A stretch of DNA of 64,000 bases, from the IMG/VR virus record IMGVR_UViG_3300036805_000137, positions 1 through 64,000 of that record; one strand, 5' to 3'. Shown here piece after piece: positions 3,228 to 58,228 of the stretch. Below the pieces are notes generated by a model, which made no database searches, was not told the origin of the DNA, and was given only the letters and a program-made list of their open reading frames with translations. Each line of letters starts with the position of its first letter. Within the stretch, counting starts at the first letter, position 1. The DNA is from a virus (taxonomy: Duplodnaviria; Caudoviricetes). The position numbers and the translations under genes were made by a program.

Positions 3228-4435
3228 TGCGCAGCGTATCCAGCCGTTTCCTGGCTGCAGTGAAAGGACCGCACAAAGTAGCATCTCGCGCGGTGCTCGT
3301 GGATGCCGCACCGCAGTTCGGACTGAATCCAACGGGCACCGAGATCCCGATTATCAGCGGCTCGATCACCACACAGTCATTGTCTGATGTGAAATCCACG
3401 CTCTCGCTCACCGTGCCTGGCGACTACTACACCGCGCTGAAACCCTATGGTACTGAATTGTTCATTGAGCGTGGCGTAGAATTTTCCAATGGTGACCGGG
3501 AAATGGTGGGCCTGGGTTACTACCGTATCGAGCAGATTACTCAAGATGAGGCACCTTTTGGGCCGGTGAGCATCCAAGGGCTTGACCGCATATCGCAACT
3601 GCAGCAAAACAAATTGGCATTTCCCTTACCGCTCAATAATGCGGACAGTCATCGCAGCGTGTTCCATCGGTTGTTTAACGGTATCTCGATCCCGCAGCAA
3701 GCCACCTACCCCGGACTCTCGCCGGCCGGATTTGCGGCGTATCCTAACGCGCGGATACCCATCAGCTGGACTAGTTACAACCCGGACACTACCACCATCA
3801 TTGGTGATCAGATTGTCGAGGATGACGCCTACGGATATCTACGAGATCTGATCAAGATATACAACGCCAGCATGATGCGATTCACCTACACTGGCGAATT
3901 GTTGGTGTACTCGATTGCTATTGATGCCAGCTACCCCGTGTACACGCTGACTGGTGGAGCCGGCGGCCAGATCATCAAGGCTAACCGGGTAACGAAACGC
4001 ACGGACGTCTCAAATTCAGTCACCGCATACGGAAGTGACCCGACCAGCATAACTGACTTTATCATCACTCAGAATGATGACCCGGCATCAGCGCTGGCTT
4101 TCAACAAAACCACCTACCCGGCATTCGGGCCGGCACCCACGTACTATTCCTCACCATTGCTGCAGACTAACGCCGATGTGGAGCTCGCAGGCGAGACACT
4201 ACTACGTCGATTTCGGATGCTGCCAGAAACCAATACGCTCACGGTCATCCCCAACGCGGCACTAGAGACCAATGATCCCATTGACGTGATCTACCGTCCG
4301 GGTATGGATCCGGTCCGCTGCATCATTGACTCAATGGTGATGCCGCTGACCGCATCAACCGGCGGCACCATTACCACACGGATCCCAACCGCTACCGAGG
4401 GGTACGGGCTGGGTCTGGGATTCCTGGGGCCATAA
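3227..4435 (+). CDS. Minor tail / baseplate hub-like protein (DUF5047-like)
   Basis: GTG at 3227 overlaps the upstream TAG (start trimmed from ORF 3140); VSSRFLAAV...ELFIERGVEF...GYYRI pattern typical of actinophage minor tail proteins. Confidence 0.7.
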   Translation: MRSVSSRFLAAVKGPHKVASRAVLVDAAPQFGLNPTGTEIPIISGSITTQSLSDVKSTLSLTVPGDYYTALKPYGTELFIERGVEFSNGDREMVGLGYYRIEQITQDEAPFGPVSIQGLDRISQLQQNKLAFPLPLNNADSHRSVFHRLFNGISIPQQATYPGLSPAGFAAYPNARIPISWTSYNPDTTTIIGDQIVEDDAYGYLRDLIKIYNASMMRFTYTGELLVYSIAIDASYPVYTLTGGAGGQIIKANRVTKRTDVSNSVTAYGSDPTSITDFIITQNDDPASALAFNKTTYPAFGPAPTYYSSPLLQTNADVELAGETLLRRFRMLPETNTLTVIPNAALETNDPIDVIYRPGMDPVRCIIDSMVMPLTASTGGTITTRIPTATEGYGLGLGFLGP

Positions 4436-5676
4436 TGACGTCCCCCAATGCATTTGGTCTGTCACGGTTATTCATCGCGCCGTACAATATCCCACAAGTT
4501 CCTACGCTGACCCAAGACTGGGCTGGCGGAATAATGACACAGTGGGATTCGATATCTCACACCAATACGGTTGTGGTAGGCCCGGTAACCTACCGCAATC
4601 TTCCCTCAGTCAGTCCTCTGGGATTAACCGAGGGTACCGTCCTATTGGCGAAAGTCCCGGGCGGTTACATTATTCTCGGGATGCTCGCTGTTGCGGGAGC
4701 CGTGGCGTTTCTCGATCCGATACGCCATCGCCGGGTGGCATCCGACATACCCTTGACCGGCATCACGTTAGCTGATGCTGGCAACCTGAACTTTCTAGTC
4801 AAAGATAATACTGAATATGCCGTAGATGGTGCTCTCTACTACAATTCCACAACATCACAAGACATCAAATTTGCGTGGAATGGGCCACCGAACATGGCAT
4901 GTAAATGGTCAATGTTCGGTCTGTCGAATGCAACACTAAATGAGATTCTTACAGATGTTGTGACAGCCTACGGAGATACTACTACACAAACTCTGCAGGG
5001 CTTGGGTGCGTTGGCCACCTGCCGTCCCTCTGGATGGTTTAAGACTACGGACACCCCCGGGCTGTTGCAGCTCCGCGTAGCCCTGGCTACAGCCGGCACA
5101 GCGGGCACCCTCAACCAAGGCTCGTGGCTGCGCATCAGCGAGCTGGTTGCCGGCGCGGGGGTCGCAGATACTTACACCAAGATCTACACGGCCACGGGCT
5201 CGCGCAGCTATGACCACAATGGCACATATATCGGCAGCCCTGATGGTGACAACAATATGTACTTTGGGTCCTTTAGCGGTCGGTCATTTGGCAGTGAGCG
5301 GCATATGTGGACCTTTAACGCCGCACAGATGCGCACCGACCTCACGGGCGCCACCATTTTGTCTGCGCAGATGTTTTTGTACTGCTTCCGCTGTGACAGC
5401 TCAGCTGGTGACTATAACTGGTTTTGGAGCCCGACCTCTACGATTCAGACCACATTCCCTACCAACGGTGTAGGCGGTGCTGATGTCCAGGGCGCATGGG
5501 GCACGATACCGGGCTGGGGAAGCATTGACATCGCTAGCCAAATGACTTACATAGTCAACAGCAATGCCAATAGTGTCTTAGGCGGCCCGGCCGGATTTAG
5601 TGACGCATCCACTGGTTTCCGCGGATTTGGCACCGCCAGTTACCAGCCGTACATACAGCTCACGTATGCCAAGTAA
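4435..5676 (+). CDS. Minor tail protein
   Basis: TAATG coupling; multi-domain beta-rich protein in the tail module; C-terminal ILSAQMFLY...YIQLTY pattern. Confidence 0.65.
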   Translation: MTSPNAFGLSRLFIAPYNIPQVPTLTQDWAGGIMTQWDSISHTNTVVVGPVTYRNLPSVSPLGLTEGTVLLAKVPGGYIILGMLAVAGAVAFLDPIRHRRVASDIPLTGITLADAGNLNFLVKDNTEYAVDGALYYNSTTSQDIKFAWNGPPNMACKWSMFGLSNATLNEILTDVVTAYGDTTTQTLQGLGALATCRPSGWFKTTDTPGLLQLRVALATAGTAGTLNQGSWLRISELVAGAGVADTYTKIYTATGSRSYDHNGTYIGSPDGDNNMYFGSFSGRSFGSERHMWTFNAAQMRTDLTGATILSAQMFLYCFRCDSSAGDYNWFWSPTSTIQTTFPTNGVGGADVQGAWGTIPGWGSIDIASQMTYIVNSNANSVLGGPAGFSDASTGFRGFGTASYQPYIQLTYAK

Positions 5677-49770: not shown

Positions 49771-50276
49771 CCATCTCGGTTGAGGATATCGTAGTGATAG
49801 GAGTCGACCCTGGCCCGCGCCCTGGCATTGTCGGTTTGCGCTACTCACCGCAACGGGTGCGGACCGCGGCGCCGGCCATTATTCAGTGCACACTCAACGT
49901 CGCGCTAGCATGTATCCAGGCCATTATCCCGGCAGATGTCAAGCGCATCTATTTGTCCTATGAGCCTTTCGTGATAGGTGCACGATCGGCCAAGGTGAGC
50001 ACGCCGGCTGCCAGCGCTGCTACCGCGCGGTTCTGTGGAGCTCTGCAGACGCTGGCCTACAGCGACAACCGCATCGTGCTGCGCCACCACCAAGCGTCCG
50101 CGGTCAAGCCCTGGGGCATGGAGGAACGCCTAGAGCGCGCCGGGCTGCACATGCTGGTCAAGGGCATGACTCACGCCCGTGACGGGGCCAAGCAGGCGCT
50201 GTACTGCGCCACCCACGATGCCGGCGTGCCTGATCCATTGAGCAAGCGGCACAAGCTAGCGGAGGTGGCCCCGTGA
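49767..50276 (+). CDS. RuvC-like Holliday junction resolvase
   Basis: VVIGVDPG, YEPF, VK.W, HARDGAKQAL; GGGAGG RBS. Confidence 0.75.
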   Translation: MTISVEDIVVIGVDPGPRPGIVGLRYSPQRVRTAAPAIIQCTLNVALACIQAIIPADVKRIYLSYEPFVIGARSAKVSTPAASAATARFCGALQTLAYSDNRIVLRHHQASAVKPWGMEERLERAGLHMLVKGMTHARDGAKQALYCATHDAGVPDPLSKRHKLAEVAP

Positions 50277-50743
50277 TGCCGCTGTGCGGGGGTATGGGTG
50301 CTGAGCATCCCCGACCAGCCAGCCCGCAGCGAGCGATGAGCCCGGCACATCTCGTGGCGTATTTCCACCAGTGGGCCTATGACGAACATTTCGGGGAAGG
50401 CACCGGGGATTGCAGTCTGCGCATCAATTTGCACAACAGCGAGCATGCCGAGCTCATCGAGGCACTAGAGTCTGATGCCCCGGGAGGTACCGGTGTGGTC
50501 GATTGGTTGACCGCAGTAGCGCACGAGCTGGCCGATGTGGTGTGGGTGGCCTATGGCACGGCGCACAGTCTAGGTATCCCGCTGGATCAGGTGCTACGGG
50601 CATTGTACCGATCACTGCTCACGCGCACCAATGCTGATGGCAGTCCCGCGCTGCGTGAGGACAACAAAGTCACCAAGGGTGTCAACTACCGTCCACCCAC
50701 AGAAGATATCCGAGCAATCATAGAAAGGGCCACACAATCATGA
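50273..50743 (+). CDS. MazG-like / PRA-PH-like nucleotide pyrophosphohydrolase
   Basis: INLHNSEHAEL, HELADVVWVAYG, REDNKVTKG.NY.PP. Confidence 0.75.
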   Translation: MMPLCGGMGAEHPRPASPQRAMSPAHLVAYFHQWAYDEHFGEGTGDCSLRINLHNSEHAELIEALESDAPGGTGVVDWLTAVAHELADVVWVAYGTAHSLGIPLDQVLRALYRSLLTRTNADGSPALREDNKVTKGVNYRPPTEDIRAIIERATQS

Positions 50744-51141
50744 GCTATTTCACCGCCACCCAGCAAGACATCTCAGAGGCTGTCAAAAAAGCCATTGAGA
50801 GCACGCGAGGTCACTACCTGGCTGATCTGACTATAGAAGCGTATGAGGTGGCCGTCTCGAAAGGATGGGAGGAAGACGCACACACCCGCACCTTTGGTGA
50901 TGAGGTTGCGCTGATTCACACAGAGGCCAGCGAGGCATTCGAGGCATACCGCAAACGAGGATTCGAGGCATGGGAAGGGAAAGACGGCAAGCCTGAGGGT
51001 GTCGGGTCAGAATTCGCGGACGTGTTTATCCGACTCCTGCACTACTGCTACGTGCACGGCATCGATCTGCAAGCCGAATACGACCGAAAGACAGCGTACA
51101 ACCGCACCCGTGAGTACCGGCATGGGGGCAAAAGACTATGA
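50740..51141 (+). CDS. MazG-like NTP pyrophosphohydrolase
   Basis: ALIHTEASEAFEAYRK, SEFADVFIRLL, K.AYN.TR.YRHGGK. Confidence 0.85.
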   Translation: MSYFTATQQDISEAVKKAIESTRGHYLADLTIEAYEVAVSKGWEEDAHTRTFGDEVALIHTEASEAFEAYRKRGFEAWEGKDGKPEGVGSEFADVFIRLLHYCYVHGIDLQAEYDRKTAYNRTREYRHGGKRL

Positions 51142-51785
51142 CGTGCATCAGCTCTTGGGAAGCATTCCCTGATCGGGATCAACTACCGGACTATCCATTG
51201 ACAGAAGACGAACGCGTAGCCCTATCCAATCAAACCCAAGACGCAACCAATGCGGAGCACAGTATGACTCCCGAAACCACTAACCCAAACGCCATCTACT
51301 ACCTCGCTGGCCCGATGGCGGGATACCCTGATCACAATCACCCGGCATTCCATAAGGCTGCCGCTACGTTGCGGGCATGCGGTCACGTTGTGGTCAATCC
51401 AGCTGAGTACGGCAATCTCATCATGCTGGGTTGGCAAGGCGCGATGAAACGTGACCTGCACGCAATGTTGTGGTGTGACGCGCTGGTGATGCTGCCAGGC
51501 TGGGAAAAATCCAGAGGTGCCCGGCTGGAAACCCGTACAGCCTGGGATCTCGAAATGCCCATCTACTCACTCGATGTCATGCTCTGCGACTGCATCCGGC
51601 CGCATGTGGGCGCGATGGTGTGGCACACCGAATCCTGCCTGGCGCGGCGCGTACCGATCAGCACCATTCCCGCTGATGACCTGACCACCGTGGCGATGTA
51701 CGCGCGGACCTATGCCGATGGCGAGCCGCACGCTGCCGCCGGCCGGGTGCTGCAGGGTCTGGGCAAATTGGTGTCACCGCTATGA
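51138..51785 (+). CDS. DUF4406 (nucleoside deoxyribosyltransferase-like) protein
   Basis: YYLAGPMAG, NHPAF, VVNPAE, CDALVMLPGWEKSRGARLE. Confidence 0.8.
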   Translation: MTCISSWEAFPDRDQLPDYPLTEDERVALSNQTQDATNAEHSMTPETTNPNAIYYLAGPMAGYPDHNHPAFHKAAATLRACGHVVVNPAEYGNLIMLGWQGAMKRDLHAMLWCDALVMLPGWEKSRGARLETRTAWDLEMPIYSLDVMLCDCIRPHVGAMVWHTESCLARRVPISTIPADDLTTVAMYARTYADGEPHAAAGRVLQGLGKLVSPL

Positions 51786-52331: not shown

Positions 52332-52709
52332 GTGGTTAGAATGCAGTCACACGTGCCAGGACAGGTATACCTTTTGCATTTCACGGTTCCCTACGTGGCA
52401 ATCCAGCATCCAGGCAAAAAATACCAGTGTGCAAAGCATTACCTGGGCTGGTCGAAAGATCTCATCGCCCGGCTGGCTGCGCACAAGAATGGCAATGGCT
52501 CGCGATTGGTGCAGGTAATCAACGATGCTGGTATCGAATGGGAGCTGGCCCGGGTGTGGAATGGTGACCGTTTCCTCGAGAGACAATTAAAGAAACGTGG
52601 TGGACGTAGCCGGATCTGTCCTATCTGCCAGGGCACCGGAATAGCCCTGCAGTGGGAGACATATAACACAACCGCAGCATTACTAACCGGGATAAGTGTG
52701 GGTGCATAA
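52332..52709 (+). CDS. GIY-YIG-like nuclease
   Basis: VYLLHF...HYLGWS..L..RL..H..G.G...E..LK...CPIC. Confidence 0.7.
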   Translation: MVRMQSHVPGQVYLLHFTVPYVAIQHPGKKYQCAKHYLGWSKDLIARLAAHKNGNGSRLVQVINDAGIEWELARVWNGDRFLERQLKKRGGRSRICPICQGTGIALQWETYNTTAALLTGISVGA

Positions 52710-55700
52710 TGGCTTACGGTGGATATGCATCATTCTATGTGATAGCTGGCTGGCGGTGTGTACTGCCGGTGCCGGTCCGGTCGAAGACACCGCCACCTAC
52801 CGGCTACACGGGTGATCACGGTACCGATGTGGTAGCGCCTGAGGTGTTGGCGAAATGGGAGCGAGCTCACGCGGATGACTCGATCGCATTGCGGCTGCCG
52901 GCCGGCGTGATCTGTATCGATATTGATCATTACGATAAGCCCAAGGTGTTGCCCGATGGCACGGTCACCGTAGTGGCCAAGCGGGGCAATGACACCATTG
53001 CCGAATATGAGGCCAAGTGGGGACCGCTGCCGCCCACCTGGGCGAGCACCGCGCGGGGGGATCCCAACACGGGCGCCGGCCCTTCCCGAACGTTGTTTTA
53101 CCGGGTGCCGCCCGGGCGTTATGCCACCACCCTGGGCGACCCGCGCAACGGCGCGGTGGAAATCCTGCAGCGCCACCACCGCTACTGCGTGGTGTGGCCT
53201 TCGATCAACCCGGACGCCAACAATGCGCAGTACTACTGGTACGGGCCTGGGGATCTGGGCGAGCAACGGCCACCGTGGATCGATGAGCTGACGCTACTGC
53301 CCAACGCCTGGGTGATCGGGCTCGCAGAAGGCGCCAGCGCGGCCAGCGCGCCCGCGGCACCCATGGCCGAGGGCGCGGCGCTGCTCGCGGCTCTGCTCGA
53401 TGATGACCGGCCGCCGTGCGCGGACATCACCAACATTGCCCTGACCGCGGCTGATGAGCTTGACCACGCGGCGGCGGGCAGCCGTCATGACATCGCCACC
53501 GGTCGGATCTTCCAGCTGATCCGAGCGGCTGCGTTCGGCCACCCGGGCGCGGGCGAGGTGCTGGCCGACCTGCGCACCCGCTGGGATGCCCTGACCGCGG
53601 GCGAGCACCGGGCCGATGAATTCGAGCGGATGGCCAGCTCCGCGGCGTGCAAGGCAGTAACCGAGGTCAGCGCCACCGGCTGCCCGGTGCCCGTGGCCTA
53701 TGACCCGTGCCTCATGGGTACCGTCGTTGCGCCACCGGTCCCGGGCCGACCTAGCCACACCACCGGCCCCGATGGTGAGCTCGATGACGCCAGTGATGCC
53801 GATGTGCTCGATATCCCCGCGCCGGCACCGCCCATCATCTGGTCTAGGCGAGCGCTGATCGGCACTGGTGCCTTCGACCCCCGCGGGCATCTTGATCAGG
53901 TGCTCGCTGCCCAAGCACTAGAGCGGATCCAACCGGTGCTGCGGTTCGCCACCGATGTGGGCGCGTGGGCGGTCCGTGGCCCGTACTCCTGGGATATGGC
54001 GCCCGGCGATATGGCCGACTGGGCACTGACGGAACTGTTCGACCTGATGCCCCACGGCGACCCGGACTCAGAATCCACTGAGGCACAGGACCGCGCGGCG
54101 CGGCGCAAACGGTTTGGGCAAAACAGCGGGTCAGCGGGGATAGCGAGCAAACTGCGGGCACTGGTGCGGGCCTCTGGCGCATCGAGCACGGTCCGGCTGT
54201 CCGACCTCGATGCCGATCCCGAGATTATGTGGGCCGGGCGGCTGCCGTGGGCGCTGCGCAGCTGCATCGAGCGTCCCGCGCTAGCCAACCTGCCTGCTGA
54301 CACCCCGCACCTGCACTCAGCCGGCGTGGCGCCCTCTGGGCTGGGTATCGAGCACCCTACACCGGCCTGGGATGCGTTCTTGGCCGCGGTGTGGCCGGAT
54401 CCGGCTATCCGACAGTGGGCGCTGCACGTGGTCTCTGTAGCCCTGACCGGCTACTCAGACGCAGTGATGCCCCTGCTCTGGGGGGAGACCGGCCGCGGGA
54501 AGACAGCGTTTACCGCGCTGGTGATGTCCGTGCTGGGCAGCTATGCCATCGCGGCTGATCCCCGGCTGTTGACCAGCGCGGCCGACAACGCGCATGCCTC
54601 GATCATCTACGCGCTGCGGGGGGTCCGGCTGGCCTTCATCGATGAGGGGCCACGGGATGCCAAGTGGGCGGTGTCCAAGCTCAAGCAGCTCACCGGGGGA
54701 GCTCGCCTGACCGGCAACCCGATGCGCGGCAACCCGGTGAACTTCGACCCCTCGCACACCCTGATGCTGACCTGCAACCCTGAGGAGACACCGGGTTTTC
54801 AAGACAAGGCGTTGCGGCGCCGGCTGCGGTTGATCCCGTGCGAGGGCGAGCCTGACGCGGTCGGCCGGGCGCGGGCTGCGATCACCCCGGCGATCTGGCG
54901 GGCAGAGGCACCGGGCGTGCTGGCCAAGCTGATGCACGCCACTGCTCGATGGCTCGATGACCCGGGTGTGGCTGCGCAGTGGAGTGCACCTGAGGCGATC
55001 CGGTTTCGCGCGGAAGACATCGCCAATGAGGAAGATCAGATCAGGCAGTGGATCGATGCCGAGATGGAGCCATGCGATCACGGCACCCGGGTCAGCGACC
55101 TGCTCATCTGGTTTATCGACTGGCTGCGCAAGGTCGCACCCCGGGCCAACCCTCCCAGCGCTACGCTGTTCGGCCGCAAACTGACTGAGCTGGGCTACCT
55201 GGCACTGCACCAGCGGGACGGCAAACACCGCCCATTGCGGCGCCGGCAGACCAACTACGGGCCTGACGTGCCCCCACCAAGCGCGCCTGGGCCGGGCCAA
55301 CCGATCCATGCACCACTGCCACCCATGCCCCCGCTCACAGTGATCCAGTACGACCAGCGCAACGCCGCACCCAGATCAACAGGCCCCTCCGCAGATGCGG
55401 CACCGACTACGGCGCCTGACGGGGGTAGCGCGCGCAGCTCTGACAACCCCGGCGACCTGCCCACACCCCCGACTGAAACGATCATGAGTAGCGGGGCGGT
55501 AGTTCCGCGCGAGCCTACCCCCGTTGCTGAAACGGAGCCGCAAACACGGAATTGTGCACAAGCAAACGAAACCGCATCTGCTGACCCCCGTTCCCCTGGT
55601 AGTGACCGCATCTGCGAAAAATTAGGCCAAACGGATGGTGATGGTGACCTCGCTGCGAGCGCTGAGCTTGATCGCAGACACGAACAGAGCAGCAAACGAT

Positions 55701-58228
55701 CTTCACAAGATCAAACGAGTGAAATGTCCGATTCACCTACTCCGTGTACTAAGCAATCAACTTCACCCGCCGTTCACCCTCCTGTGACCGAAACGAGACC
55801 TGATCTTGTGACGGGTTCAAACCCGTCACACAACCCGTCACAAACCCGTCACAAGATCAACATTCCTCCTACCAGTAGTAATACTCTTATTTTTGATCTA
55901 TGTGACGGGTTGACGGGTTTTTCTAGCTATGGAGCTGTCATAAAAAATGAAGATCAATCTTCCTTAATGATCTCTGGGCAAATATATGGGGATATACCCG
56001 AGGTAACCCGTCACCCGTCACAGTCGATCATTTCAGAGGGGGTGACCTCGCGAAACGACTGTGACGGGTCATTTTCCCAACCAGTCACAGAGCCCGCGGC
56101 CAGCCCGGCGCCGGTCGTGACCTGCGAGCCGCTAGCCCAAATGGATGAGGCCAGCGCTACGGCGCGGCTAGTCGAGCTGCGAGCCCAGCGCACCCAGCTC
56201 AATAGGTTGATCAAGAAAACTAACGGGGCAGATCCCCTGCACGGCGTGTACACGTACACGGTGGGCCAGCTGGCCGGCGAGATCAAGCAAGTCGAGGTGA
56301 TGATCCGAGGCCACCGCGCGGCGACCAAGCGAGCGGCAGCGGTAGCGGAAGCCGGCGGTGATCTCCTAGAGCTCCCAGCGATCAAACTGCGGGGCCAGCC
56401 GGCCCGCTCGTGCTCCGTGGATGAGGCTGCCGCTGCGGTGCGAGCCACCATGGCAGCCCGGGCTGGCCGCGTGACGGCCGATATCGAATCCAACGCCTAC
56501 CCGATCGGGCACCCGGACTACGGCGTGCGCACGCTGCAGCTGGGCGATGCGCTCACCGGCACGGACTGGGATGTCACTGACCCGGTGCAGTTCGCCGTGT
56601 GCACCTTGCTCCTGAGCGAGGCAACCGAGATCGAGGCCTACTCCGCATCAGTCGAGATATCCAACCTGGCCTACATCGGCATGATCGATTACCGCAGCGG
56701 CTGGGCGCGAGCTCGCGATGTAGTGATCCAAGCCCAGTTGAACAACCCAGTGGGCACGCTGAGCTCGGACAGCGGCCTAAAACCGCAAGCGGAGCTGCAC
56801 CTGCCGGATCCGGCCAGCCCGGCAGCCGATGCGCGCCGCGCCGCGCTGTTCAAAGCGGGCGGCTGGATCACTGACACCAAGATCAAAAACGCCGGCGGTA
56901 GTGAGGGTGGCGGCTGGGTAGCCCGCGAGCGCTCTGGTTGGGCCAACGCCGACCCCCGGTACCGCACCAGCATTGACTATGCCGTCTCTGACATCCATGA
57001 CACAGCTGCGCTGGGTGAGGCCCTACCGATGCCGGCGCCAGGCGTCTACGCGCGGGAGGTGGCCGTACAGGCGGCTGTAGGGGCAGTTTCCTACGTGGGC
57101 ATCGCGCTCGATCGCAGCCATATCGAGGCCAAGATCGCAGAGCACTCGCCAATGCGCCGCGCCGCTGCGGAGGAACTGGCCGCGATGGGCATCACCAACC
57201 CGGGCAGCAACGATCAGATAGCCGCGGTGTTGATGGCTCACGGCGCCCGGCTGCCCCGGGGGGAAAAATCAGGCAAGCCCGGCGTAGCAGCGGGTGTGCT
57301 GGAAAAACTACCGCGCAATCAGGGTGAGCAATTTACACCCATTGTGGAAGCGATACTACGATTTCGGCATCATCAGCGGATCCTGTCCACCTACCTGCGA
57401 CCCTATTACCTGCTGTGCACCCATGGGGATGGACGGATGCGCAGCACCGTGTACACGCTGCAGGCTGATACCGGCCGCATGTCCTGTGTCCACGAGAATC
57501 TGACCAACATCCCGCGCATCGGCGGAATTCGAGAATCTTATGTCACTGACCCGGGGGATCTGTTCGTAGATGCTGACCTTTCCGGGGTAGAGGTGGCCGT
57601 ACTCGCCGCGCTATCACAGGATCCGGTATTGCTTGAGCTGGTTGCCTCTGGTCGGAAACTGCACAAAATCATTGCTGAAATGGTCTACGGAGCTGGTTAC
57701 TCAGGCGAGGAATACACCTACGTCAAAAATGGTGTGTTCGCCAAACTCTACGGCGCGGGCATCGCGCGCATTGCCGATACGGTCGGTTGCACTGAGCGGG
57801 AAGCTCAGATGATGGTGGATGCGCTCGATGAGCTAGCCCCGCACACCAAGCGATGGGGTTATGATCTGCGCAATAAGGCCAAGGCAGGCATGCAGCGGGT
57901 GCAATTGTATTCCGGCCGGGTGCTGCACCTGCCGTCCGCGACTCCGCACAAGATAGTGAATTACTATGTCCAAGGTACCGCGCGTGAGCTCTTGGTTGAC
58001 GGGTTGCTGAGATGGCGCCAGACAAAGTGGGGCGACTACGGCATCATTGTGCCCGTGCATGATGAGATCCTGGCCACCGTGCCCGCGGTAGAGGCTGACG
58101 AGGCCATGGCTGCGTTGGGCCAGTGCATGGCCTCAGAGCTCTACGGCGTGCGCATCGGCGCCGAACCCAAGTGGATCAATCCCTCTGACCGCTGGCTGTC
58201 CAATGACCACCCACTAGCGAAAGGCTAA
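52709..58228 (+). CDS. Fused primase-polymerase / SF3 helicase / 3'-5' exonuclease / family A DNA polymerase
   Basis: AEP IDID; Walker A GETGRGKT, Walker B AFIDEG, motif C LMLTCN; Exo DIE and YAVSD; TGRMS..NLTNIP, DLSGVE, K...F...YG, VHDE. Confidence 0.88.
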   Translation: MAYGGYASFYVIAGWRCVLPVPVRSKTPPPTGYTGDHGTDVVAPEVLAKWERAHADDSIALRLPAGVICIDIDHYDKPKVLPDGTVTVVAKRGNDTIAEYEAKWGPLPPTWASTARGDPNTGAGPSRTLFYRVPPGRYATTLGDPRNGAVEILQRHHRYCVVWPSINPDANNAQYYWYGPGDLGEQRPPWIDELTLLPNAWVIGLAEGASAASAPAAPMAEGAALLAALLDDDRPPCADITNIALTAADELDHAAAGSRHDIATGRIFQLIRAAAFGHPGAGEVLADLRTRWDALTAGEHRADEFERMASSAACKAVTEVSATGCPVPVAYDPCLMGTVVAPPVPGRPSHTTGPDGELDDASDADVLDIPAPAPPIIWSRRALIGTGAFDPRGHLDQVLAAQALERIQPVLRFATDVGAWAVRGPYSWDMAPGDMADWALTELFDLMPHGDPDSESTEAQDRAARRKRFGQNSGSAGIASKLRALVRASGASSTVRLSDLDADPEIMWAGRLPWALRSCIERPALANLPADTPHLHSAGVAPSGLGIEHPTPAWDAFLAAVWPDPAIRQWALHVVSVALTGYSDAVMPLLWGETGRGKTAFTALVMSVLGSYAIAADPRLLTSAADNAHASIIYALRGVRLAFIDEGPRDAKWAVSKLKQLTGGARLTGNPMRGNPVNFDPSHTLMLTCNPEETPGFQDKALRRRLRLIPCEGEPDAVGRARAAITPAIWRAEAPGVLAKLMHATARWLDDPGVAAQWSAPEAIRFRAEDIANEEDQIRQWIDAEMEPCDHGTRVSDLLIWFIDWLRKVAPRANPPSATLFGRKLTELGYLALHQRDGKHRPLRRRQTNYGPDVPPPSAPGPGQPIHAPLPPMPPLTVIQYDQRNAAPRSTGPSADAAPTTAPDGGSARSSDNPGDLPTPPTETIMSSGAVVPREPTPVAETEPQTRNCAQANETASADPRSPGSDRICEKLGQTDGDGDLAASAELDRRHEQSSKRSSQDQTSEMSDSPTPCTKQSTSPAVHPPVTETRPDLVTGSNPSHNPSQTRHKINIPPTSSNTLIFDLCDGLTGFSSYGAVIKNEDQSSLMISGQIYGDIPEVTRHPSQSIISEGVTSRNDCDGSFSQPVTEPAASPAPVVTCEPLAQMDEASATARLVELRAQRTQLNRLIKKTNGADPLHGVYTYTVGQLAGEIKQVEVMIRGHRAATKRAAAVAEAGGDLLELPAIKLRGQPARSCSVDEAAAAVRATMAARAGRVTADIESNAYPIGHPDYGVRTLQLGDALTGTDWDVTDPVQFAVCTLLLSEATEIEAYSASVEISNLAYIGMIDYRSGWARARDVVIQAQLNNPVGTLSSDSGLKPQAELHLPDPASPAADARRAALFKAGGWITDTKIKNAGGSEGGGWVARERSGWANADPRYRTSIDYAVSDIHDTAALGEALPMPAPGVYAREVAVQAAVGAVSYVGIALDRSHIEAKIAEHSPMRRAAAEELAAMGITNPGSNDQIAAVLMAHGARLPRGEKSGKPGVAAGVLEKLPRNQGEQFTPIVEAILRFRHHQRILSTYLRPYYLLCTHGDGRMRSTVYTLQADTGRMSCVHENLTNIPRIGGIRESYVTDPGDLFVDADLSGVEVAVLAALSQDPVLLELVASGRKLHKIIAEMVYGAGYSGEEYTYVKNGVFAKLYGAGIARIADTVGCTEREAQMMVDALDELAPHTKRWGYDLRNKAKAGMQRVQLYSGRVLHLPSATPHKIVNYYVQGTARELLVDGLLRWRQTKWGDYGIIVPVHDEILATVPAVEADEAMAALGQCMASELYGVRIGAEPKWINPSDRWLSNDHPLAKG
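55801..56089. repeat. Iteron array and AT-rich core, candidate replication origin inside the replicase gene
   Basis: ACCCGTCACA exact at 55807(-), 55821, 55833, 55844, 55901(-), 56013, 56060(-); 8-mers at 55911(-) and 56006; 1-mismatch copy at 56080; 17-bp IR 55801-55817/55843-55859. Confidence 0.8.

What the first reader, a model, noticed from the sequence alone, without database searches (positions are those of the whole stretch)
55801..56089. Replication-origin-like iteron array translated in frame as the replicase linker
Seen: seven exact ACCCGTCACA copies in both orientations plus partial copies; a 17-bp perfect inverted repeat; and two inverted double-iterons (55901-55918, 56006-56022) flanking an ~87-bp AT-rich core. 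All lie inside the helicase-polymerase linker without a stop (peptides NPSH, NPSQ, TRHK, CDGLTG, TRHPSQ). Established: iterons plus an AT-rich unwinding element define theta origins, and D5/P4-type primase-helicases bind such sites near their own gene. Inference: the fusion arose by read-through across the former intergenic origin, so one stretch now serves as both origin and protein linker.
Basis: partly seen in the sequence, partly recalled or inferred. Interest (0 to 1): 0.85.

Follow-up and report, generated by a model that had tools for sequence, protein, structure and literature searches.

The report
Replication origin inside a replicase gene
A phage's probable replication origin (repeated binding sites around an easily melted AT-rich core) lies inside the gene for its own all-in-one primase-helicase-polymerase and is also translated as the flexible linker of that protein; this is a new variant of arrangements known from phage lambda and staphylococcal islands, and it is shared by a whole family of actinobacterial phages.

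Summary
ACCCGTCAC occurs 8 times, only at 55808-56069, in both orientations. It is the most clustered 9-mer in the 82-kb DTR phage genome. Double iterons face each other across an 87-bp, 37%-GC core. All of this is in frame inside a 1839-aa PrimPol / D5-type SF3 helicase / exonuclease-PolA gene.

Comparison shows a DNA element, not a peptide repeat.
- The word is translated in three frames (TRH, NPS, PVT).
- The reverse copy never sits in the frame that gives TGA.
- 11 of 11 fused relatives first examined, and 33 of 40 in a further survey not seeded by the iteron word, carry such arrays just after the helicase's C-terminal winged-helix-like domain.
- The word differs between lineages.
- Unfused distant relatives have the same module in the intergenic gap right after the helicase stop codon. 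Phage A2 has a rep_origin annotated at that position, and the layout matches SaPI origins.

The best reading is the phage's origin, bound by its own replicase and doubling as linker-coding DNA, as with ori-lambda inside gene O.

The predicted precursor (iterons between separate primase and polA genes) was not found. Function is untested. Earlier notes of this scan report the same arrangement on other genomes.

The parts
52709..58228 (+). Single ORF of 1839 aa: the fused replicase (PrimPol, D5-type SF3 helicase with a C-terminal DNA-binding domain, long linker, 3'-5' exonuclease-like region, family A polymerase)
   Evidence: ORF list and translation. Pfam hits: Prim-Pol aa 9-181, DUF5906 aa 590-704, DNA_pol_A aa 1486-1810. 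More than 200 fused homologues.
52733..53251 (+). Prim-Pol (AEP primase-polymerase) domain, aa 9-181
   Evidence: Pfam PF09250, E 7e-16
54476..54820 (+). SF3 / D5-type helicase NTPase core (DUF5906), aa 590-704
   Evidence: Pfam PF19263. PDB sequence hit to ASFV C962R. Foldseek hits to ASFV PrimPol, mpox E5 and SaPI5 primase-helicase 7ola_A.
55031..55258 (+). Helicase C-terminal domain (aa ~774-850), winged-helix-like; the presumed iteron reader
   Evidence: AlphaFold2 model: this segment has pLDDT 78-88 and beta-alpha-alpha-beta-beta order. It aligns with the C-terminal Pox_D5-type domain of unfused relatives, which stop 3-17 aa after it.
55259..55800 (+). Clade-specific extra linker (~180 aa, rich in P/S/T/A/Q) between the helicase C-terminal domain and the first iteron; GC falls from 0.70 to 0.49 along it
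   Evidence: Poorly conserved among relatives. Replaced by an in-frame HNH-like insert in L021, L022 and P0004. Absent from short-linker relatives. Composition profile.
55801..55859 (.). Left iteron array: one reverse iteron (55807-55817) and three forward iterons (55820-55853, spacing 12 and 11 nt), enclosed by a perfect 17-bp inverted repeat (55801-55817 / 55843-55859)
   Evidence: read as VTG, NPSH, NPSQ, TRH in three frames
55901..55918 (-). Inner left double iteron, reverse orientation (TGTGACGGGT TGACGGGT), followed by TTTTTCTA
   Evidence: The 25-nt stretch TGTGACGGGTTGACGGGTTTTTCTA is identical in several low-GC phage contigs, where it is intergenic.
55919..56005 (.). AT-rich core (87 bp, 36.8% GC), the presumed DNA-unwinding element
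   Evidence: The same kind of spacer (80-104 nt between the first iterons of the two sets) occurs in fused and unfused relatives.
56006..56022 (+). Inner right double iteron, forward orientation (two overlapping copies, 7-nt spacing)
   Evidence: Read as TRHPSQ here, but as NPSPVT or TRQPVT at the same alignment columns in relatives.
56056..56089 (.). Outer right iterons: a reverse copy at 56060-56069 (arm of the 14-bp inverted repeat with 56013-56026) and the forward variant AACCAGTCACA at 56079-56089
56426..57148 (+). 3'-5' exonuclease-like region (aa ~1240-1480), which starts the polymerase half
   Evidence: PF01612 is precomputed for many homologues. This region aligns to the Pol I N-termini of unfused actinophages. 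Not tested directly on P0001.
57164..58138 (+). Family A DNA polymerase domain, aa 1486-1810
   Evidence: Pfam PF00476, E 9e-41

Best explanation
The 55801-56089 stretch is the phage's replication origin, or at minimum the cognate binding array of its replicase, written into DNA that is also translated.

Proposed mechanism:
1. The winged-helix-like C-terminal domain of the D5-type SF3 helicase module reads the ACCCGTCAC iterons.
2. Two oppositely oriented sets of iterons position helicase rings on either side of the 87-bp AT-rich core.
3. The core melts, the PrimPol domain primes, and the covalently attached PolA extends.

The layout matches that of SaPI islands and A2/Sfi21-type phages, where the origin lies directly 3' of the primase-helicase gene. 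Here there is no stop codon, so the origin is read through as a disordered linker that joins the helicase to the polymerase. That is analogous to ori-lambda lying in the middle of gene O.

Shown: the anatomy, DNA-level rather than peptide-level conservation, conservation of the position across the family, and the homologous position in unfused relatives. Inferred: binding, melting and origin activity.
For: 1. Statistics and anatomy: see the observation check.

2. The repeat is a DNA word, not a peptide.
- The forward copy is read in three frames (TRH, NPS, PVT) and the reverse copy in two (VTG, xDG).
- The reverse copy is never in the frame that gives TGA, in 6 loci. In L031 the variant word has no TGA, and that frame is used 3 times.
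- At the same alignment columns, relatives read TRHPSQ, NPSPVT or TRQPVT.

3. In an otherwise unconserved linker, only the iteron-encoded peptides are conserved.

4. Window versus L021: third-codon-position divergence is 0.13-0.46 in the catalytic domains but 0.031 in the origin segment, where there are 2 synonymous and 4 nonsynonymous codon changes.

5. The feature is family-wide.
- All 11 fused loci first examined have a both-orientation 9-mer cluster at the GC minimum of the linker. This includes 2 loci tested blind.
- In a survey not seeded by the iteron word, 33 of 40 fused viral loci (one of them, L043, from the same contig as L006) have 4-13 copies within 350 nt just after the helicase C-terminal domain. 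Control regions gave 1-3, with a single 5.

6. All copies within a lineage share that lineage's variant (ACCCGTCAG, ACCCGGCAC, ATCCGTCAC, ACCCTCCAC, CCCCTGCAC and others). That is the expected pattern if a cognate binding protein co-evolves with its sites.

7. Unfused relatives carry the same module in the intergenic gap right after the helicase stop codon. The Lactobacillus phage A2 record annotates rep_origin at exactly that position.

8. The literature describes the same architecture as functional.
- SaPI origins: 6-12 iterons, about 300 bp, a central AT-rich region, at least 2 iterons on each side pointing in opposite directions, bound by the Rep C-terminal winged helix (PMC9371898; bioRxiv 10.64898/2026.10.17.759575).
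- D5-family members bind origins through a C-terminal winged helix (PMC4889955).
- Ori-lambda lies in the middle of gene O (PMC7466680).

9. The helicase module is of the D5/SaPI5 fold type, and its C-terminal domain is confidently modelled.
Against: - No experiment: binding, melting and origin firing are all inferred.
- GC skew does not single out this site. The cumulative curve rises from about 56 kb, but the global minimum is at 26 kb.
- A lower-GC symmetric element exists at about 68.4 kb of the genome, outside the window, and could be another origin or the packaging site.
- The low silent-site divergence against L021 could partly reflect recent recombination, because divergence is mosaic along the gene.
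- The structure model is weak overall (mean pLDDT 60, TM 0.3-0.4), so the winged-helix assignment rests on the C-terminal segment only.
- Seven of the 40 surveyed fused loci showed no exact 9-mer cluster of 4 or more.
- In this clade the array starts about 550 nt after the helicase C-terminal domain, not directly after it.
Confidence: 0.78

Rival explanations
1. The array is an operator or roadblock for autoregulation, not an origin. The replicase or another DNA-binding protein binds the iterons inside the gene to throttle transcription of the polymerase half.
For: The iterons are inside the transcribed gene, so bound protein would block RNA polymerase. A specific binding partner is implied by the lineage-specific words. 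Iterons commonly have both origin and regulatory roles in plasmids (general knowledge).
Against: The central AT-rich core with inward-facing double iterons is not needed for an operator. The homologous intergenic site in A2 is annotated as rep_origin. The architecture matches functional SaPI origins. No promoter-like site lies nearby. Regulation could also be a secondary effect of origin binding rather than an alternative to it.
Confidence: 0.08
2. The array is a vestigial or secondary origin. The phage now initiates elsewhere, for example at the lower-GC symmetric element near 68.4 kb, and the iterons persist for another reason.
For: The lowest-GC window of the genome is at about 68.48 kb and has its own repeats. 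GC skew is not decisive.
Against: A dead origin would not stay conserved in 33 of 40 surveyed loci with concerted lineage-specific word changes. Nor would it keep silent sites 4-15 times more conserved than the neighbouring catalytic domains.
Confidence: 0.07
3. The array is a partition (centromere-like), packaging (pac) or recombination site rather than an origin.
For: Repeat arrays in both orientations also occur at centromere-like and pac sites. Mosaic breakpoints and an HNH-like insert lie next to it in relatives.
Against: The genome ends are 127-bp direct terminal repeats at position 1 / 82450, far from this site. The constant link is to the helicase C-terminal domain, not to terminase or ParAB genes. 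In some unfused relatives terminase happens to follow, but in most it does not.
Confidence: 0.04
4. The repeats are a protein-level feature: a repeated peptide motif in a disordered linker, with the DNA repetition as a by-product.
For: The peptides NPSH/NPSQ repeat, and the linker is conserved at these points.
Against: The same DNA word gives unrelated peptides in three frames and on both strands. Relatives change the frame but keep the word. The same module is non-coding in unfused relatives. Nonsynonymous changes are at least as frequent as synonymous ones in the segment.
Confidence: 0.01

Closest known systems
SaPI (Staphylococcus aureus pathogenicity island) pri-rep-ori replicons, e.g. SaPI5 PriRep5, SaPI1 Rep1 (PMC9371898; bioRxiv 10.64898/2026.10.17.759575)
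   Same: A self-loading SF3 helicase, sometimes fused to a primase, with a C-terminal winged helix that reads short iterons. The origin spans about 300 bp and lies 3' of the helicase module. It has a central AT-rich region with at least 2 iterons on each side pointing in opposite directions, plus extra inverted iterons in the flanking arrays. Foldseek links the helicase module to 7ola_A.
   Different: Here the origin is inside the open reading frame and is translated. The iteron word is 9-11 nt rather than 5-7 nt. The protein continues into an exonuclease-PolA half. The host range is Actinomycetota phages. Sequence similarity to SaPI Reps is detectable only by fold.
Ori-lambda inside gene O of lambdoid phages (PMC7466680)
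   Same: The iterons plus AT-rich tract lie in the middle of the initiator's own gene and are translated as an interdomain segment. Changing the number of iterons changes the protein length. Transcription of the gene runs through the origin.
   Different: The O protein is an unrelated initiator: an N-terminal DNA-binding domain that recruits host DnaB through P. Lambda iterons are all read in one frame as direct repeats. Here the initiator is a helicase-primase-polymerase fusion and the word is read in three frames and on both strands.
Origins downstream of the primase-helicase gene in A2 / PSA / Sfi21-type Firmicutes phages (phage A2 record NC_004112 rep_origin; Sfi21 PER element, PMC6356513)
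   Same: Homologous D5-type primase-helicase (42-46% identity to the low-GC contigs that share the window's iteron word). The layout of iterons, AT-rich core and inverted iterons starts at the 3' end of the primase gene.
   Different: The site is non-coding there. Iteron words differ (A2 ACGGGAGGAT, PSA GGTGGATAGTT). No polymerase is attached.
Helicase-primase-polymerase single-polypeptide fusions: Pas55 of Actinoplanes phage phiAsp2 (SF3 + DnaG-type + PolA) and gp55 of Lactococcus phage 1706 (SF3 + AEP + PolB) (PMC4889955)
   Same: All three replisome activities are in one chain, with the SF3 helicase in the middle.
   Different: The combination here is AEP (Prim-Pol) + SF3 + PolA, which that paper does not list. 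That paper does not discuss an origin in the linker.
pRN1 ORF904 and phage BIP-1 replication proteins (PMC4234260)
   Same: An AEP primase + SF3 helicase + winged-helix protein that starts replication at a site directly downstream of its own gene.
   Different: Their origin is a roughly 100-nt stem-loop without iterons, it is non-coding, and no polymerase is fused.

Membership tests
SaPI-type iteron origin served by a self-loading D5/SF3 helicase | An SF3 (D5-type) helicase is encoded immediately upstream | tested here: met
   Pfam DUF5906. PDB sequence hit to ASFV C962R. Foldseek hits to ASFV PrimPol, mpox E5 and SaPI5 7ola_A at probability 1.0, with low TM scores.
SaPI-type iteron origin served by a self-loading D5/SF3 helicase | The helicase has a C-terminal winged-helix domain that reads the iterons | tested here: inconclusive
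   The C-terminal segment is modelled at pLDDT 78-88 with beta-alpha-alpha-beta-beta order. It aligns with the Pox_D5-type C-terminus of L016. The whole model is weak and no DNA binding was tested.
SaPI-type iteron origin served by a self-loading D5/SF3 helicase | 6-12 short iterons within about 300 bp | tested here: met
   8 exact and 2 one-mismatch copies in 283 bp. The word is longer (9-11 nt) than in SaPIs.
SaPI-type iteron origin served by a self-loading D5/SF3 helicase | A central AT-rich region with at least 2 iterons on each side pointing in opposite directions | tested here: met
   55901-55918 (-) and 56006-56022 (+) flank an 87-bp core of 36.8% GC.
SaPI-type iteron origin served by a self-loading D5/SF3 helicase | The origin lies in non-coding DNA immediately downstream of the rep ORF | tested here: not met
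   It is inside the ORF and about 550 nt after the helicase C-terminal domain. In short-linker fused relatives it starts 8-107 nt after that domain but is still coding. In unfused relatives it is non-coding.
SaPI-type iteron origin served by a self-loading D5/SF3 helicase | Rep binds and melts the origin, and the fragment supports replication | not testable with these tools
   Needs EMSA or footprinting, a melting assay and a minireplicon.
Intragenic origin of the lambda type (origin within the initiator's own gene) | Iterons plus an AT-rich tract lie within the coding sequence of the initiator and are translated | tested here: met
   the lambda definition is from PMC7466680.
Intragenic origin of the lambda type (origin within the initiator's own gene) | The initiator is an O-type protein that recruits the host helicase through a P-type loader | tested here: not met
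   The protein is a PrimPol-SF3 helicase-PolA fusion and no O or P homologues were seen. So this is the same principle but not the same family.
Helicase-primase-polymerase fusion replicases (PMC4889955) | Primase, replicative helicase and DNA polymerase domains in one uninterrupted polypeptide | tested here: met
   Pfam domains in order on one ORF. More than 200 homologues of 1011-3219 aa were recovered, and nearly all of the 120 listed carry PolA together with DUF5906 and/or Prim-Pol domains. All 4 genomic hits in 301 genomes lie in open frames of 1647-1728 aa.
Helicase-primase-polymerase fusion replicases (PMC4889955) | The domain types match a described case (SF3+DnaG+PolA or SF3+AEP+PolB) | tested here: not met
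   Here the types are AEP + SF3 + PolA; the paper lists only the two other combinations.

The most novel reading that the evidence does not exclude
Placing the origin directly behind the codons for the origin-reading domain, within one reading frame, is an adaptive design and not an accident of gene fusion. With coupled transcription and translation, the nascent primase-helicase would emerge next to its own iterons and load preferentially in cis. Once loaded, it would block further transcription and translation of the polymerase half. Origin firing and replicase dosage would then be tied to each genome copy. A second unexplained point fits here: the same iteron word, and 25 identical nucleotides, occur in low-GC Firmicutes-type phages whose helicase is only about 26% identical. 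This suggests an origin-recognition code that is either extremely conserved or exchanged between phyla.
Probability: 0.2. Interest if true: 0.75.

Novelty: new variant of a known kind. Interest (0 to 1): 0.55.

Why it matters
- Annotation: it gives a concrete, testable origin for a large and mostly uncultured family of Actinomycetota phages and prophage-like elements. A simple rule follows: look for the both-orientation word cluster at the GC minimum just after the helicase C-terminal domain.
- Dual coding: the same 9-nt word must bind a protein as DNA and must also be translatable in whatever frame it lands. This has visible consequences, such as avoidance of the TGA frame and linker peptides that change by frame-shifting rather than by substitution.
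- Tools: the element pairs a one-protein replisome with a compact cognate origin, which is attractive as a minimal orthogonal replication system for high-GC Gram-positive bacteria.
- Continuum: the result links SaPI-type origins, A2/Sfi21-type phage origins and the lambda 'origin inside the initiator gene' principle.

Tried and rejected
The DNA of the closest homologues P0002-P0007 could not be fetched, so their frame changes were inferred from protein sequences and checked on other loci with DNA.
- blastn of the region against isolated phages found nothing. A single-protein search of viral contigs found nothing.
- The metagenome scan gave only two very close relatives, L021 and L022, about 98% identical in the origin. 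These are too close to test frame independence.
- Unfused actinophages with adjacent primase/helicase and Pol I genes have no iterons at the junction.
- GC skew is inconclusive.
- GATC enrichment (8 in 350 nt) is matched elsewhere in the genome and is not shared by relatives, so it was dropped.
- No promoter-like or terminator-like sites were found at 55300-56600, and no conserved internal start for a separate polymerase: the Met at aa 1145 is kept only in the closest relatives.
- A PDB sequence search found only ASFV C962R. The link to SaPI Rep needed a fold comparison, and that comparison has low TM scores.
- I looked for residues in the C-terminal domain that track the iteron word and saw no clear pattern in A3.
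- Sequencing-run coverage and complex prediction were not used. Contigs give no depth information, and complex prediction does not take DNA.
- Literature searches found no description of an origin inside such a linker. The library is limited to open-access papers.


Full report
**What the window is.** The window is the first 64 kb of an 82,450-bp viral record with 127-bp direct terminal repeats, rated complete, at 58.5% GC. Nearly all long ORFs are on the + strand. Tail, FtsK-like, helicase and nucleotide-metabolism genes mark it as a tailed phage. The distant similarities point to Actinomycetota hosts.

**The gene.** ORF 52709-58228 (+) encodes 1839 aa. It carries Prim-Pol (aa 9-181), the D5-type SF3 helicase core DUF5906 (aa 590-704) and DNA_pol_A (aa 1486-1810). 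Between the helicase and the polymerase half lies a linker of about 300 aa. This linker is poorly conserved.

- There are seven exact ACCCGTCACA copies, or eight of the 9-mer ACCCGTCAC, plus two one-mismatch copies, in both orientations, all between 55807 and 56089.
- A perfect 17-bp inverted repeat lies at 55801-55817 / 55843-55859, and a further perfect 14-bp one at 56013-56026 / 56056-56069.
- Two oppositely oriented double iterons (55901-55918 and 56006-56022) flank an 87-bp core of 36.8% GC.
- Chance expects 0.67 copies of the 9-mer in the window.
- The cluster is the strongest of any 9-mer in the whole genome (8 copies, next best 4). Thirty simulated genomes gave maxima of 2-5.
- The site is the second-lowest-GC 100-nt window of the genome.
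- The coding frame has no stop across the linker, while the other two + frames have 14 and 24. A given frame stays open in only 0.15% of shuffles of the origin part.

**It is a DNA element, not a peptide repeat.**
- Within this gene the forward word is read as NPS[HQ] and as TRH, and the reverse word as VTG and CDG.
- Across related loci the forward word is read in all three frames (TRH, NPS, PVT).
- The reverse word is read in only two frames. It is never in the frame that would produce TGA.
- L031 acts as an internal control. Its lineage word lacks TGA, and there the third reverse frame is used three times.
- In the protein alignment of the 10 closest homologues, the only conserved islands in the linker are the iteron-encoded peptides. 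At the same columns different relatives show TRHPSQ, NPSPVT or TRQPVT, and NPSQTRHK versus NPSQPVTK. These are the same DNA read in another frame.
- Between the window and its close relative L021, third-codon-position divergence is 0.13-0.17 in the PrimPol and helicase domains and 0.27-0.46 in the exonuclease and PolA domains. In the origin segment it is only 0.031, and there the third position is no freer than the others (2 synonymous, 4 nonsynonymous codon changes).
- One caveat applies. Divergence along the gene is mosaic, so recent recombination may contribute to that low value.

**It is a family-wide feature.**
- The fusion is not peculiar to this phage. More than 200 homologues of 1011-3219 aa were found, and nearly all of the 120 listed carry PolA together with DUF5906 and/or Prim-Pol domains. 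They include copies in Nocardioides, Micromonospora, Kribbella, Prauserella and Mycobacterium assemblies.
- In 301 genomes of one actinobacterial order, 4 have the helicase, always within an open frame of 1647-1728 aa.
- All 11 fused loci first examined carry a both-orientation word cluster at the GC minimum of the linker. Two of these were tested blind.
- A survey seeded by the protein rather than by the iteron word recovered 80 viral loci. One of them, L043, comes from the same contig as L006. Among the 40 fused loci, 33 have 4-13 copies of one 9-mer within 350 nt. In nearly all, the array starts 8-107 nt after the helicase C-terminal domain. Control regions of the same loci gave 1-3, with a single 5.
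- The word differs by lineage, but all copies within a lineage agree. The commonest is ACCCGTCAC. Others are ACCCGTCAG, ACCCGTCAT, ACCCGGCAC, ATCCGTCAC, ACCCTCCAC, ACCCTGCAC, CCCCTGCAC and ACCCGCCTG. This is the pattern expected when a binding protein co-evolves with its sites.
- The common core is a reverse double iteron, a lower-GC spacer (80-104 nt between the first iterons of the two sets) and a forward double iteron.

**Unfused relatives place the same module in non-coding DNA.**
- A scan of viral contigs for the window's 18-mer found 13 contigs. Twelve of them are low-GC (43-53%) phage contigs. In at least 10 of these a tblastn-confirmed D5-type primase-helicase (24-28% identical to ours) ends a few bases before the module, and the next gene's ribosome-binding site and start codon follow it.
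- Several share 25 identical nucleotides with the window.
- Their primase-helicase is 42-46% identical to those of Listeria phages PSA and B025, Lactobacillus phage A2 and Staphylococcus phage phiSP119-3.
- All three of those examined have iterons, an AT-rich core and inverted iterons directly after the primase gene, each with its own word. The A2 record annotates that site as rep_origin.
- Further unfused relatives in 57-66% GC contigs stop 3-17 aa after the C-terminal domain and have inverted iteron sets at the stop codon.

**Mechanism.** The helicase module belongs to the D5 / ASFV C962R / mpox E5 / SaPI5 PriRep fold group. Its C-terminal ~75 residues are modelled confidently as a beta-alpha-alpha-beta-beta, winged-helix-like unit. 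They align with the Pox_D5-type C-terminus of the unfused proteins.

In SaPIs the equivalent domain reads 6-12 iterons that lie immediately downstream of rep. Those iterons are arranged in opposite directions around a central AT-rich region within about 300 bp, and the helicase loads itself there (PMC9371898; bioRxiv 10.64898/2026.10.17.759575). D5-family members in general bind origins through this domain (PMC4889955).

I therefore infer the following sequence of events. The replicase binds its iterons, and hexamers assemble on both sides of the core. The core melts, PrimPol primes, and the tethered PolA extends. None of these steps was tested.

The principle of an origin translated as part of its initiator is textbook for lambda. 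[quoted passage not shown]

Positional homology supports the idea that a stop codon was lost and translation now runs through a formerly intergenic origin. If so, this happened at the base of a large family and not in this phage. In this clade a further ~180 aa have since been inserted between the helicase C-terminal domain and the iterons. In L021, L022 and P0004 that insert includes an in-frame HNH-like domain.

The specific precursor was not found. Actinophages with separate adjacent primase/helicase and Pol I genes have no iterons at the junction. In unfused relatives with the module, the next gene is a terminase large subunit or a small ORF.

**Rivals.**
- An operator or roadblock role is possible, but more likely as a side effect of origin binding.
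- A vestigial origin is hard to reconcile with the degree of conservation.
- A packaging role is unlikely because the genome termini lie elsewhere.
- A peptide repeat is contradicted by the frame data.
- GC skew does not decide the matter, and a lower-GC element near 68.4 kb remains a possible second site.

**Novelty.** The open literature that I could search describes SF3+DnaG+PolA and SF3+AEP+PolB fusions (PMC4889955). It describes origins 3' of primase-helicase genes (SaPI, A2, Sfi21, pRN1) and ori-lambda inside gene O. It does not describe an origin read through as the helicase-polymerase linker. Earlier unchecked notes of this scan report the same arrangement on several other genomes. The phenomenon is therefore recurrent, and this window is a particularly clear, iteron-rich example. 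I rate it a new variant of a known kind, of moderate interest.

Noticed in passing
L021:4650-5250 and L022 (same sequence); protein P0004: In close relatives the linker DNA just upstream of the origin is replaced by an unrelated in-frame insert with Cys/His motifs. Pfam PF02945 (Endonuclease_7 / HNH-like) is precomputed for P0004. This looks like a homing-endonuclease-type domain living inside the replicase linker next to the origin.
   Followed up: partly
L008-L014, L016-L020 (IMG/VR low-GC contigs) versus window 55901-55925: Phage contigs of 43-53% GC, whose helicase is only about 26% identical, share the window's exact iteron word. Several also share the 25-nt stretch TGTGACGGGTTGACGGGTTTTTCTA. 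Closer relatives of those phages (A2, PSA) use different words. Either the recognition code is deeply conserved or the origin has been exchanged between phyla; this remains unexplained. Many distant words share a CGTCA core.
   Followed up: partly
window 52709-58228 versus L021:1959-7874: Divergence along the replicase gene is strongly mosaic: nucleotide divergence is 6% in the PrimPol-helicase half and 25% in the PolA domain, with the change occurring around the linker and origin. This suggests that the two halves are exchanged by recombination at or near the origin.
   Followed up: partly
G000:C1:68400-68600 and 65860-66300 (beyond the window's end): The lowest-GC 100-nt window of the genome (28% GC) lies at about 68,481 and carries GTGTACACA three times. 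The palindromic word CAGATCTGA occurs 4 times near 65,864. These could be a packaging or terminus site and operators, or a second origin.
   Followed up: no
L028 and L030 (contig CAZDAO010000001.1, 19649-27472 and 66597-74420): Two identical copies of the fused replicase locus lie 47 kb apart on one 101.7-kb MAG contig. This is probably a ~47-kb circular or concatemeric element assembled twice, not a true duplication.
   Followed up: no
L066 (IMGVR_UViG_3300037258_000590): One relative has the fused gene interrupted inside the polymerase half, with a stop at locus position 4487. The PolA similarity continues from 4515 in the stop-to-stop frame that opens at 4428, so this looks like a frameshift. 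It could be a sequencing error, a pseudogene or a natural split, and the break is not at the linker.
   Followed up: no
window 50273-51785: Just upstream of the replicase lie a nucleoside 2-deoxyribosyltransferase-like / MazG-like gene (PHROG 355, 12019) and neighbouring small genes, suggesting that nucleotide-pool editing is coupled to replication.
   Followed up: no
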